From IMG/VR virus record IMGVR_UViG_2802429242_000009, positions 1 to 33,994 of that record: a stretch of DNA of 33,994 bases; one strand, given 5' to 3'. The number at the start of each line of letters is the position of its first letter. The first letter of the stretch is position 1. Shown in pieces: positions 30,001-33,000 of the stretch. The position numbers are program-made. The DNA is from a virus. Its lineage: Duplodnaviria > Heunggongvirae > Uroviricota > Caudoviricetes.

Positions 30001-33000
30001 AAAACTTCAGTCATATCGTGATGAGCTTGTTCGCAATGCTGGCCCTGATGGTCCGGTTAATCTGGATTTGAAGCAATTAAGCGATCTGCGCAGCCAGTTC
30101 AGAATGGACGTGAAGGGGGAGCGACCAGTCTTACCAAACCGTTCCGATGCCGCCATTCAACGTGTTTACAAGGCGATGACCGACGATATCAATGGTGCCA
30201 TTGGTCAGAATCTTGGCAACGATACTCTCCGTAAATATCAGCAGGCCAATGCCGTCTACGCTGACGAAGCGGCGAAACTAAAGAATACCAGGCTGAAGAA
30301 TGTTCTCATGAAAGGAGACCTGACGCCGGAAGTTGTCAACAACATGCTATTCAGCAAGAACAAATCGGAAATTAAGACGCTGTATAACTCAGTTGGTCGT
30401 GTTGGCAGGGCGCAAATGCGCAATGGCATCATTGGAAAGGCGATGGAGAAATCTGGCGGATCCCCTGACCAGTTCCTTCGGCAGCTTAACATCCTGCAAA
30501 ACCAGACTGGCATCACATTTAAGGGGCAGGACGCTGCTTATCTGAAAGGATTAAAAAACTACCTGCAATCCACGCAGCAGGCTGCAAAAGCGGCAGTAAC
30601 AACACCCACAGGGCAGCAAACTATCCCGTTCATTATTGGGTATGGGACGGCAATGAACCCGGCGACAACTGGCGCAGCAGTAAGCTACGGACTTCTTACT
30701 CGCGCCTATGAGAGCGAGCCATTCAGAAATGCAATGCTCCGAATGGCAAACACCCCACGCGGATCAACAGCGTTTGAGAAAGCCATGCGGCAGGCGCAAA
30801 AGGCCATTAACGCCCTTACTCAGGGTGCCAAGTCTGATGCGTTGTCAGAATAGCTTCGCAAACACCAGGAACGTGCAAAAACCAAATATATAGAGCGCAA
30901 TATTCAACAGATCTCTTTGCATAGACTCATCTCATAATTAACAAATCATAACTGACATTAGTGCAATGCTGGGCAAGTTGCATCTTGTTCGGCATTGCTA
31001 CGTCCGGAGCAAATTAAATGACAGACATTACAGCCAATGTTGTAGTTAGCATGCCTTCGCAACTCTTCACTATGGCGCGTTCTTTTAAAGCGGTTGCCAA
31101 TGGCAAAATTTATATCGGTAAAATTGACGCGGACCCCGTAAATCAAGAAAACCAGATTCAGGTTTATGTGGAGAACGAAGACGGTTCTCATGTTCCTGTT
31201 TCGCAACCAATCATCATTAACGCTGCTGGATATCCGGTATATAACGGACAGATTGCCAAGTTCGTAACTGTACAGAATCACTCCATGGCTGTATATGATG
31301 CGTATGGCGCACAACAATTCTATTATCCTGATCTACTGAAATATTCTCCAGACCAGTTAAGGGCTGAGCTTTCTGGCCCTGATGGCGCATCTCTGGTTGG
31401 TTATGGAGGCACAACCGTAAAGATTGAGCTGGAGATCTTGAAAGCTACACATGATTCATTAATTGATAAAACAGGATTTAACGCTATTGGCCGCTTTCTC
31501 AATCTTTCAGAGCTTCGCTCCTGTGTTCCGGAGGAGGCAGGGCAGATTGTATACGTAGCATCAGCAGCTAGCACTACACATGCTGAAAACCACCTTGGTG
31601 GCGGCTTTTTCGAGTCTGTTGATAACATTCAGGCATGGGCTGATGATGGTGGAATTGTAATCAAGCCAGAAACTGGAACGATGGTATGGAGACGAATTAA
31701 TTTTACCACTTACGACATGCAATTTTGGGGGGTGAAACCTGACGGAGTCACAGATAACGCAACAGCTATAACTCTTGCAACTAACTTTGCCCGCTCAAAC
31801 AAATGCATTCTAGAGGCTCCTGCTGGAAACATAAATACATCAAAAACAATCCCAATTTATGACAATATGGGAATTAGAGGACAGGGAAAGGCTGAAGCGA
31901 CAGTTTTTTATAAAACAACAAATGACAAAATAGATCTCACAAAAAATGGAGAAGTAATTCTTCAGGTGGATGCATTATGTGCTTTTATACCAAAGCAATG
32001 GGATCTAACAGATAACTCAATGAGTTCATTTTGTGTTAACGGTAGAGTTGAAAACTGCATGTTTAGAAGGCTTGGCTTAACACAAGAAAACGTAGATTCT
32101 TATAGAAATTATTACGGACTGTTTTTAGGAAAATCAGCAGCACCAGTTATCAGACAGTCAATTTTTGAATGTGCTTATATCGGATGCTTCTCTTATGTGC
32201 CGTTCTCTGGCGTAATGGAAATGGTCGGTTTCCCACAATATCCAGGGAAAGGATATGCTGGAGTTTTATTTGAAGATTTTAGGGATGGTCAAATAAAAGT
32301 AATAGGCACTTCTATGGATATGCGCCTTGTTCAGGTTAACGGTTACCAGTTGTCATTTAGAATGTCAGGAATGCAATATACCACCATGACCAATTGTACT
32401 GCTGAAAACTGCACGCCAATGGATGGGGAGTCAATTTGCTATGCATTTGATTTTGTAAATCCTTATTGCATTGTCATGAATACTTGTGCAACAGAATTTG
32501 TTAAGGGTGGGCAACTGCGTGTTAGCGTTCAGGGAAACCCATCATTCAGACCATCTATTATTGTCAATGGCTTTCTGCCAATTGATCAACAAAGCCCGGT
32601 AATGCAAACACCTATAATAGATATTGATAATGGTGGCGTAGTTGAAATGAGTGTCATATTAAATGGTGGAGATTGGGCTATAAATCCATCTGCTGCAAAT
32701 TTAACCGTACCAAGAGCAAGCGGTTCTAAGTTGAAGGTAAGGATGATAGGGGTAAATGGGTCTCCGAAATCAATCTGGAACATCTCTGGTAACGCAGATG
32801 TTCAGGAGTTTTGAATTTACAAGTATTGACATAGCTCATAGATGAAACTAACCTGCCAAGATCATTAATGATATTGGCAGTGTTATGACTCAGAAAAACA
32901 AAATTATTCATAGCCTTACATCACTTCGAATGCTTGCGGCTCTTGGTGTATTTGTTAGCCATCTAGGCATTTTGTCTCAGTCTTCGATCTCGCAGTTCAA

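What the first reader, a model, noticed from the sequence alone, without database searches (positions are those of the whole stretch)
30854..31017. No immI region between the last ejection gene and the tailspike
P22 carries sieA, mnt, arc and ant between gene 16 and gene 9. Here only 164 bp separate them, with an 8-bp inverted repeat AGCAATGC/GCATTGCT (30962-30969, 30992-30999) and a GGAG RBS. This phage therefore lacks the P22 secondary immunity system, so the Rha/KilAC gene in the nin region may be its only antirepressor-like function.
Basis: partly seen in the sequence, partly recalled or inferred. Interest (0 to 1): 0.35.

Follow-up and report, generated by a model that had tools for sequence, protein, structure and literature searches.

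The report
Sf6-type tailspike spacer without immI
The 164-bp gap between the last DNA-ejection gene and the tailspike gene of this P22-like prophage is the ordinary, already published phage Sf6 arrangement: it has no secondary-immunity genes, only a conserved RNA hairpin and the tailspike ribosome-binding site.

Summary
The gene-16 homologue (28856-30853) and the tailspike gene (31018-32814) are separated by 164 non-coding bases. No homologue of P22 sieA, mnt, arc or ant lies there or anywhere else in the 34-kb window.

This is not new. Phage Sf6 has a spacer of the same length, about 92% identical across the junction. Villafane et al. 2008 (PMC2629481) state that the variable "ant moron" is absent in Sf6, APSE-1/2 and phiSG1. 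The gene-free state is common:
- 12 of 25 species-level P22-like prophages;
- 8 of the 80 nearest IMG/VR relatives;
- 195 of 5426 complete E. coli genomes carry this same junction.

Only 7 bp are perfect, but they are the outer part of a 15-bp RNA stem-loop (30963-30998, -24.2 kcal/mol). It ends 7 nt before the GGAG and has no U-run, so it is not a terminator. A hairpin at this place recurs, with different stem sequences and compensatory changes, across P22-like phages. This is the only mildly new point.

The remark about a single antirepressor-like gene needs qualifying. Besides the Rha/ANT gene (11662-12384) there is a KilA-N gene (15560-16081). Primary immunity is a LexA-type repressor (6413-7063).

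Verdict: already known, low interest.

The parts
28856..30853 (+). Gene-16 homologue (DNA transfer/ejection protein, 665 aa), the last ejection gene of the late operon
   Evidence: 98.6% aa identity to Sf6 gp13. 33.5% identity to P22 gp16 over 582 aa, E=9e-76. phrog_770 DNA transfer protein 2e-239.
30854..31017 (+). 164-bp non-coding intercistronic spacer, Sf6 type (no ant moron / immI)
   Evidence: Same length as Sf6 13555-13718. The 30400-31324 stretch spanning the junction is 92.5% identical to Sf6. No immI homologue or coding remnant. No sigma-70-like promoter or intrinsic terminator in it. NCBI's PGAP pipeline annotates no gene in the same 164-bp gap of E. coli 7/2.
30854..30923 (+). Spacer segment A: travels with the Sf6-type gene 16 and is also present in moron-bearing relatives
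   Evidence: blastn of window 30800-30923: 95-96% identical to E. coli S56 and L009, 88% to Gally, 79% to L010. Homology stops at about 30923, where their Mnt/Arc-containing morons begin.
30924..31002 (+). Spacer segment B: A+T-rich stretch plus hairpin, shared only with other moron-less phages
   Evidence: Homologous to g341c, L013 (Citrobacter) and L035 (Pseudescherichia) from about 30876-30938 onward. It is replaced by the moron and a different hairpin in S56, Gally, CUS-3 and P22, whose homology resumes at about 31001-31011.
30963..30998 (+).
   Evidence: -24.2 kcal/mol, z=-3.0, 0/200 shuffles. Compensatory changes among 10 window-type sequences. 95.9% of cells paired against 31-52% in slid controls on A3. 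No U-run follows. No Rfam family.
31006..31009 (+). Shine-Dalgarno GGAG of the tailspike gene, left unpaired in the predicted fold
   Evidence: Sequence. The motif C(Y)GGAG is conserved in almost all relatives. Unpaired in the minimum-free-energy fold.
31018..32814 (+). Tailspike gene (598 aa): P22-type head-binding domain plus a pectate-lyase-like receptor-binding part
   Evidence: Pfam Head_binding 1.2e-64 and a weak Pect-lyase_RHGA_epim match. 70% identity to P22 gp9 residues 1-117.
11662..12384 (+).
   Evidence: Pfam ANT 7.7e-33 and Phage_pRha 6.3e-9. phrog_63 anti-repressor Ant 3.3e-99. Weak tblastn to the C-terminus of P22/CUS-3 Ant (E about 0.05-0.08) and to P22 Rha (2e-5).
15560..16081 (+). 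KilA-N domain gene between the lysis cassette and the small terminase gene (the position of rha in P22); a second gene of the Bro/KilA/Rha regulator kind
   Evidence: Pfam KilA-N 2.8e-24. phrog_129 transcriptional regulator 1.4e-58. P22 map.
6413..7063 (-). Primary (immC) prophage repressor, LexA-like and self-cleaving, next to Cro (7144-7329) and CII (7351-7731)
   Evidence: Pfam HTH_3 1.4e-16 plus Peptidase_S24 1.1e-30; P22_Cro 8.7e-28; Phage_CII 3.9e-48.

Best explanation
The interval is the ordinary non-coding intercistronic spacer of the late operon of a P22-like (Lederbergvirus) prophage with an Sf6-type virion module. Many relatives carry the variable 'ant moron' (P22 immI: sieA, mnt, arc, sar, ant) at this spot. 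This phage, like Sf6, has no gene there.

Consequences (inferred):
- The tailspike gene is transcribed only by read-through of the Q-antiterminated late transcript, since no promoter is found in the spacer.
- It is translated from its own GGAG.
- It lacks the extra Pant/Mnt/Arc layer that modulates gene 9 expression in P22.
- Immunity rests on the immC repressor alone, a LexA-type self-cleaving repressor.

The one structured element in the spacer is a 15-bp RNA stem-loop that ends 7 nt before the Shine-Dalgarno sequence. A hairpin at this place is kept across P22-like phages with different stem sequences. I infer that it works at the mRNA level. It could be a 5'-proximal stabiliser or insulator of the last cistron that keeps the ribosome-binding site free whatever lies upstream. 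It is not a terminator. That last step is inference only.
For: Shown:
- Gene identities and the 164-bp gap.
- Same length as Sf6, 92.5% identity across the junction, 86% coverage in phage vB_EcoP-683R2.
- The same junction covers at least 80% of a 501-bp query in 195 of 5426 complete E. coli genomes.
- Four IMG/VR contigs have a 164-bp gap and an identical 80 nt upstream of the tailspike ATG.
- No immI protein homologue in the window and no Arc, Ant or AntA Pfam family in the ORFs scanned except the nin-region ANT.
- No promoter or terminator pattern in the spacer.
- Literature: the ant moron is 'absent in Sf6, APSE-1, APSE-2 and phiSG1', with ten types in sixteen genomes (PMC2629481). Phage L also lacks ant and arc (PMC8022706).
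- Survey: 12 of 25 species-level P22-like loci have a gap of 200 bp or less with no immI homologue.

Hairpin:
- Stability.
- Compensatory pairs.
- Across 31 sequence clusters of the -62..-12 region, mean z=-2.08 and 16 of 31 have z<-2.
- The covariance model built from the window type finds the P22 type at the homologous place.
Against: - The window does not contain the left end of the prophage (ea, xis, int). Absence of immI from the whole prophage is therefore shown only for 34 kb, plus the right end seen in a 99.99%-identical contig.
- Transcription by read-through is inferred from a crude consensus scan.
- The hairpin's function is untested. Related sequences are not independent, and the covariance-model alignment leans towards the model structure (caveats).
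- Some clades (Xenorhabdus L015/L020/L021, Arsenophonus L032/L033) show no significant hairpin.
Confidence: 0.88

Rival explanations
1. The spacer is a deletion scar. An ancestor carried an immI/ant moron that was lost, leaving only flanking sequence.
For: Segment A (30854-30923) is 79-96% identical to the sequence that precedes the Mnt/Arc-bearing morons of S56, L009, Gally and L010. Villafane et al. consider a single ancestral insertion followed by insertions and deletions plausible. HK620 and Scho1 carry degraded ant genes.
Against: No remnant of any immI coding sequence in the spacer, even at very permissive thresholds. Segment B is shared only with other moron-less phages (g341c, L013, L035), so the spacer is not simply 'S56 minus mnt'. 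Short, gene-free gaps occur in about half of distant P22-like prophages (Proteus, Xenorhabdus, Yersinia, Erwinia, Morganella), which fits an ancestral empty state equally well. This rival concerns history, not present function, and is compatible with the main explanation.
Confidence: 0.3
2. The immI functions are present but relocated elsewhere in the prophage, in the part not covered by the window.
For: The window lacks the left prophage end. Mosaic phages move modules.
Against: Nothing in 34 kb. The right end seen in L119 has only an acyltransferase and gtrCBA, then host genes. In relatives that carry the window's leftmost complete gene, the DNA beyond it holds Ead/Ea22, DUF551, Lar, small ORFs and integrase only. 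The complete Sf6 genome has no immI homologue. In the moron-bearing loci surveyed here and in the literature read, immI-type genes lie between genes 16 and 9; the rest of those genomes was not scanned.
Confidence: 0.03
3. The inverted repeat is a transcription terminator or attenuator that sets the tailspike level, the role proposed for the ant-moron terminator in P22.
For: Strong G+C-containing stem. Many relatives do have a true intrinsic terminator (stem plus a run of 6-8 T) between gene 16 or ant and the tailspike gene, e.g. CCCAGCTTCGGCTGGGTTTTTTT. The literature links termination in this region to tailspike dosage.
Against: The stem is followed by UACGUCCGGAG, with no U-run, and the terminator scan finds nothing in the spacer. 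In relatives that have a real terminator, the hairpin discussed here is a second, separate stem-loop downstream of it.
Confidence: 0.08
4. The hairpin has no RNA function. It is either a DNA-level 'boundary sequence' used for module exchange or a chance palindrome carried along with the tailspike gene.
For: The CUS-3 record annotates the 101 bp upstream of its tailspike gene as 'bsq1; boundary sequence'. Homology breakpoints between phages fall right at the hairpin's edges (about 30923-30938 and about 31003). The perfect repeat is only 7 bp.
Against: A boundary sequence works through sequence identity, yet here the sequence differs between types while pairing is kept. Examples are UGCAAUC/GGUUGCA versus UUCAAU/AUUGAA, CG versus GC/GU, and GC versus AU/UA. 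Stability exceeds shuffles in 16 of 31 independent sequence clusters.
Confidence: 0.15

Closest known systems
Phage Sf6 gene 13 - gene 14 junction (NC_005344 13555-13718)
   Same: Same gene order and the same 164-bp length. 92.5% identity over the stretch spanning the junction. Same hairpin and the same GGAGCAAATTAAATG start region. No immI genes anywhere in the genome.
   Different: A few substitutions in the stem, mostly pair-preserving (U-G to C-G, G-U to A-U). The tailspike receptor-binding part differs beyond the head-binding domain. Downstream conversion genes differ: here a co-oriented acyltransferase followed by gtrCBA, in Sf6 an opposite-strand oac followed by int.
P22 immI region / 'ant moron' (sieA, orf59a, mnt, arc, sar, ant; NC_002371 13336-16035)
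   Same: Same genomic slot, between gene 16 and gene 9 of the late operon. The last ~15 nt before the ATG and the head-binding domain are homologous. A small hairpin also precedes the P22 gene 9 Shine-Dalgarno sequence.
   Different: P22 has 2890 bp with six genes, promoters, operators and terminators. This phage has 164 bp and none of them.
Other moron-less P22-like phages and prophages (Salmonella phage g341c; Citrobacter, Pseudescherichia, Proteus, Xenorhabdus, Yersinia, Erwinia and Morganella prophages)
   Same: Gene 16 directly followed by the tailspike gene with a 61-200 bp gap and no ORF. g341c, L013 and L035 share segment B and the same hairpin type.
   Different: Several of them (Proteus, Xenorhabdus, Yersinia, Erwinia) carry an intrinsic terminator in the gap that this phage lacks. 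Their hairpin sequences are unrelated.
Partial morons on the same Sf6-type gene 16 (phage Gally, vB_EcoP-720R6, IME10, E. coli S56)
   Same: Gene 16 is 97-99% identical at protein level, and the first 45-70 bp after its stop codon match the window.
   Different: They insert 471-1544 bp carrying an Mnt/Arc-family gene with or without others, but no ant. They use a different pre-Shine-Dalgarno hairpin.

Membership tests
P22 immI / ant moron | Antirepressor gene ant between gene 16 and gene 9 | tested here: not met
   tblastn of P22 and CUS-3 Ant against the spacer and the whole window gives nothing in the spacer. The only hit is a weak C-terminal match (E 0.05-0.08) inside the nin-region ANT gene.
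P22 immI / ant moron | Mnt and Arc ribbon-helix-helix repressors with their operators | tested here: not met
   No tblastn hit with Mnt/Arc of P22, CUS-3, Gally or S56. No Arc-family Pfam hit in any scanned ORF. Operators were not searched separately.
P22 immI / ant moron | sieA superinfection exclusion gene and sar antisense RNA | tested here: not met
   No SieA hit. blastn of P22 13314-16203, which includes sar, finds only chance matches of 13-19 nt in the window.
Sf6-type moron-less gene 16 / tailspike junction | Gene-16 homologue followed directly by a head-binding-domain tailspike gene, with a gene-free gap alignable to Sf6 | tested here: met
   164 bp in both. 92.5% identity across the junction. 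Alignment A1.
Rho-independent terminator | G+C-rich stem-loop immediately followed by a U-run | tested here: not met
   The stem is present but the tail is UACGUCCGGAG. The terminator scan finds none in 30854-31017.
Known RNA families (Rfam 15) | Match to a curated covariance model at gathering score | tested here: not met
   Only chance-level hits in 30600-31200, best 18.5 bits against a gathering score of 57.
Phage antirepressors of the ANT/KilAC type (for the gene at 11662-12384) | ANT (PF03374) C-terminal domain with an N-terminal Rha/Bro/KilA-N-type domain | tested here: met
   ANT 7.7e-33 and Phage_pRha 6.3e-9, both above the curated cut-offs. phrog_63 3.3e-99.
Phage antirepressors of the ANT/KilAC type (for the gene at 11662-12384) | Binds and inactivates a prophage repressor | not testable with these tools
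The gene lies in the nin region downstream of PR, so it would be expressed only after derepression (inference from the gene map).

The most novel reading that the evidence does not exclude
The stem-loop just upstream of the tailspike Shine-Dalgarno sequence is an undescribed, structurally conserved cis-acting RNA element of P22-like phages. It is kept through repeated module exchange and through gain or loss of the ant moron. It would set the stability or translation of the last late cistron and so the tailspike dose per virion.
Probability: 0.35. Interest if true: 0.3.

Novelty: already known. Interest (0 to 1): 0.1.

Why it matters
It matters little. The finding re-derives a published fact about P22-like phages: the slot between gene 16 and gene 9 is a hot spot of gene flux and is empty in Sf6-type genomes.

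Practical consequences:
- This prophage has one immunity system only.
- It should not show the P22-style Ant-mediated induction of, or by, heteroimmune lambdoid phages from this locus.
- Its tailspike expression depends solely on late read-through.

The recurring pre-Shine-Dalgarno hairpin could be worth a small experiment, because tailspike dosage control in P22-like phages has been attributed to the moron that these phages lack.

Tried and rejected
- Looked for coding remnants of immI genes in the spacer with very permissive tblastn. Only noise was found.
- Looked for a promoter or terminator in the spacer. None was found.
- Searched Rfam. Nothing was found.
- A first survey of gap sizes took any upstream ORF of 300 aa or more as gene 16. 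It therefore miscounted about 25 'gap = 100 bp' loci as moron-less. They are ant-to-tailspike gaps, as in CUS-3. The survey was redone with a 450-codon criterion plus homology to immI proteins.
- Tried to find the exact source and the left prophage end by exact-protein look-up. The tailspike look-up gave a 99.99%-identical contig that covers only window positions from about 14.5 kb onwards (my arithmetic from the contig coordinates). The left-end proteins led only to mosaic relatives.
- No complete E. coli RefSeq genome carries the whole 30000-33994 stretch.
- The paper on P22 tail protein gene expression (Adams et al. 1985, PMC255003) is not held.
- A search for a prior description of the hairpin found nothing in the held library. 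The P22 sRNA paper does not mention 'tailspike' or 'gp9', and the passages read place no sRNA upstream of gene 9.
- RNase III processing was considered. I rate it unlikely from background knowledge, because the stem is only 15 bp here and 7-9 bp in the P22 type.
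Full report
What is in the sequence

The window is a P22-like (Lederbergvirus-type) prophage. Its gene order is:
- early-left recombination genes on the minus strand;
- a LexA-type repressor (6413-7063), Cro and CII;
- replication genes and a nin region;
- Q, followed by tRNA-Asn and tRNA-Thr;
- lysis genes, terminase, portal, scaffold and coat;
- tail and ejection genes, the tailspike gene and an acyltransferase.

The ORF 28856..30853 (665 aa) is the gene-16 homologue. It is 98.6% identical to Sf6 gp13, 33.5% identical to P22 gp16 over 582 aa (E=9e-76), and matches phrog_770 'DNA transfer protein'. The ORF 31018..32814 (598 aa) begins with the P22 head-binding domain (PF09008, 1.2e-64). 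The two genes are separated by exactly 164 bp (30854-31017). GGAG lies at 31006-31009, 8 nt before the ATG.

Positions 30962-30969 read TGCAATGC, so the perfect repeat is 7 bp (30963-30969 / 30992-30998). My estimate is that a 7-bp repeat alone is about what chance gives; this was not computed. The repeat continues, however. The repeat finder gives 18-nt arms. As RNA the arms form a 15-bp stem with G-U pairs and a 6-nt loop. The fold energy is -24.2 kcal/mol, z=-3.0, with none of 200 shuffles as stable, and the Shine-Dalgarno sequence and start codon stay unpaired.

No immI

- tblastn with P22 SieA, Orf59a, Mnt, Arc and Ant finds nothing in the spacer or elsewhere in the window. The same holds for CUS-3 Ant/Mnt/HkcB, the Gally moron proteins and the Arc-family protein of E. 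coli S56.
- The only hit is a weak match of the Ant C-terminus (E 0.05-0.08) inside the nin-region gene 11662-12384.
- blastn with the whole P22 16-to-9 interval gives only chance matches of 13-19 nt.
- Pfam scans of the ORFs outside most of the virion module (early, nin, lysis and terminase regions, plus genes 16 and 9) show no Arc, AntA or P22_AR families.
- Even at very permissive thresholds there is no coding remnant of immI genes in the spacer.
- The consensus scan finds no promoter and no intrinsic terminator in it.

The window stops at the acyltransferase stop codon. A public contig that is 99.99% identical over window 21018-33994 shows gtrC, gtrB and gtrA next, and then host genes. The right end therefore holds no immI genes.

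The left end (ea, xis, int) is not in the window. In mosaic relatives that carry the window's leftmost complete gene, the DNA beyond it holds only Ead/Ea22, DUF551, Lar-like genes, small ORFs and an integrase.

It is the Sf6 arrangement, and it is published

- In phage Sf6, gene 13 ends at 13554 and the tailspike gene starts at 13719: again 164 bp. The junction aligns at 92.5% identity.
- Phage vB_EcoP-683R2 is the same.
- Salmonella phage g341c has a 155-bp gene-free gap.
- The complete Sf6 genome has no homologue of any immI protein.
- Villafane et al. 2008 named this slot the 'ant moron'. They counted ten types in sixteen genomes and stated that it is absent in Sf6, APSE-1, APSE-2 and phiSG1 (PMC2629481).
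- Phage L lacks sieA, ant and arc (PMC8022706).

How common the empty slot is

- A 501-bp query across the junction is covered at 80% or more in 195 of 5426 complete E. coli genomes. PGAP annotates no gene in the 164-bp gap of strain 7/2.
- Among 28 species-level genomes with a related head-binding domain, 25 had a recognisable gene 16. Of these, 12 have a gap of 61-200 bp with no immI homologue. They come from Citrobacter, Pseudescherichia, Morganella, Proteus, Xenorhabdus, Rahnella, Yersinia, Erwinia and an Acinetobacter-labelled metagenome-assembled genome.
- Among the 80 nearest IMG/VR relatives, 8 are moron-less. Four of them have a 164-bp gap and an identical 80 nt upstream of the ATG. 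About 35 carry an Ant homologue and about 20 carry only Mnt/Arc-family genes.
- My first count was wrong because Ant itself passed the size filter. It was corrected.

Anatomy of the spacer

- Segment A, roughly 30854-30923, travels with the Sf6-type gene 16. It is also found, at 79-96% identity, in relatives that then continue into an Mnt/Arc-bearing moron (S56, L009, Gally, L010).
- Segment B, roughly 30924-31002, is A+T-rich and contains the hairpin. It is shared only with other moron-less phages (g341c, L013, L035).
- From about 31003 onward (Shine-Dalgarno sequence and head-binding domain) nearly all P22-like phages are homologous.

The spacer is therefore itself mosaic. It is not simply a relative's moron with the genes cut out.

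The hairpin

A stem-loop lies 5-20 nt upstream of the tailspike Shine-Dalgarno sequence in most P22-like phages examined, with unrelated stem sequences:
- window/Sf6/g341c type;
- P22/CUS-3 type: CCGUAGC-CAU-GCUGCGG;
- S56/IME10 type: UGCAAUC..GGUUGCA, with the L010 variant UUCAAU..AUUGAA;
- Proteus/Providencia type: ACACCAG..CUGGUGU;
- Xenorhabdus type;
- Yersinia type.

Supporting tests:
- Among ten window-type sequences, 13 consensus pairs are predicted and two show changes on both sides.
- A covariance model built from them finds the P22 type at the homologous position, ending at the ATG (E about 0.003-0.7).
- On the 19-row alignment, 95.9% of cells pair against 31-52% when the partner is slid. 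Four pairs have double changes. The covariation score is 0.226 against at most 0.076 in the slid controls. That alignment is fitted to the model and the sequences are related, so this is supportive rather than proof.
- Independently of any alignment, the -62..-12 region was clustered into 31 sequence types. It folds better than dinucleotide shuffles on average (mean z=-2.08; 16 of 31 with z<-2; window type z=-5.2).
- No Rfam family matches.
- No U-run follows the stem, so it is not an intrinsic terminator. In relatives that do have a terminator after gene 16 or ant, this hairpin is a separate element downstream of it.
- The CUS-3 record labels this region only as a 'boundary sequence'.
- I found no description of the hairpin in the held literature.

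How it most likely works

Shown: there are no genes, no promoter pattern and no terminator pattern in the spacer, and a stable, conserved stem-loop sits next to a free Shine-Dalgarno sequence.

Inferred:
- The tailspike is the last cistron of the Q-dependent late transcript and is made only by read-through. It lacks the Pant/Mnt/Arc/t-ant layer that is thought to influence gene 9 transcription in P22.
- The hairpin probably acts on the mRNA, for example as a 5'-proximal stabiliser after processing, or as a local structure that insulates the ribosome-binding site from whatever sequence lies upstream in this fast-changing slot. I give this RNA role about 35-50%. It needs experiments.
- Immunity rests on the immC repressor, whose S24 peptidase domain implies RecA-stimulated self-cleavage (family knowledge).

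The antirepressor remark

The nin-region gene 11662-12384 does have Rha plus ANT/KilAC domains and falls in phrog_63 'anti-repressor Ant'.
1. A second gene of the same broad Bro/KilA/Rha class, a KilA-N protein, lies at 15560-16081. That is between lysis and terminase, where P22 has rha.
2. The ANT gene lies downstream of PR. It would be expressed only after the prophage's own repressor is already inactive. If it has any antirepressor role, that role would be in trans on other prophages (inference).

Sf6 has neither gene.

Verdict

The main interpretation is correct. The arrangement is already known and common. Interest is low. The recurring pre-Shine-Dalgarno hairpin is a modest side observation.

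Noticed in passing
window 15560-16081 (+): KilA-N domain gene (Pfam 2.8e-24; phrog_129 'transcriptional regulator') between the lysis cassette and the small terminase gene, where P22 carries rha. It has no homologue in Sf6 or P22 by tblastn.
   Followed up: partly
window 30963-30998; L003 (P22) about 16166-16184; L007 about 2781-2801; many other loci: A stem-loop 5-20 nt upstream of the tailspike Shine-Dalgarno sequence recurs across P22-like phages with unrelated stem sequences and compensatory changes. It is not in Rfam, and I found no description of it in the held literature.
   Followed up: yes
L040, L053, L093 and about 25 other IMG/VR loci; L017, L019, L022, L025, L026, L028, L030 (60-100 nt upstream of the tailspike ATG): Many relatives carry a textbook intrinsic terminator (e.g. 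CCCAGCTTCGGCTGGGTTTTTTT, or CCGCTTAATTGCGGTTTTTTT) between ant or gene 16 and the tailspike gene, upstream of the second hairpin. The window/Sf6 type has none, so late read-through into the tailspike gene may be regulated differently in the two groups.
   Followed up: partly
window about 31460-33994; L008 (E. coli 33-6) 6001-7676: The receptor-binding part of the tailspike plus the co-oriented Acyl_transf_3 gene (32885-33994, phrog_3333 O-acetyltransferase) form a module. It is 84.5% identical to phage TL-2011b. It survives at 99.9% identity as a prophage remnant (tailspike C-terminus, acyltransferase, gtrCBA, intS, tRNA-Arg) in E. coli strains 33-6 and 58-3. No promoter or terminator pattern lies in the 70-bp gap between tailspike and acyltransferase, which is odd for a lysogenic-conversion gene.
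   Followed up: partly
window 21018-33994 = L119 1-12977: A contig of assembly GCA_013369065.2 is 99.99% identical to the right 13 kb of the window. It continues with gtrC, gtrB and gtrA on the opposite strand, then an Ibs toxin gene and host genes (VWA, PP2C, HSP70-like, AlkA). The prophage therefore ends just after gtrA, and the integrase must be at the other end.
   Followed up: partly
window 4939-5577 (-): The early-left operon gene encodes an Nmad5 (nucleotide modification associated domain 5) protein (Pfam 5.7e-71), next to an N-like antiterminator (5574-5945, weak N_peptide match).
   Followed up: no
window 13795-13869 and 13875-13950 (+): tRNA-Asn(GTT) and tRNA-Thr(TGT) lie between the Q gene and the holin gene, as annotated in Sf6 and phage 21. 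The minus-strand ORFs listed there (13737-13874, 13838-14044) are therefore spurious.
   Followed up: yes
window 7351-7731 (+): The CII-like ORF is listed as 126 aa, but the Phage_CII domain starts at residue 30 and relatives are called at 97 aa. The true start is probably the internal ATG about 29 codons downstream.
   Followed up: no
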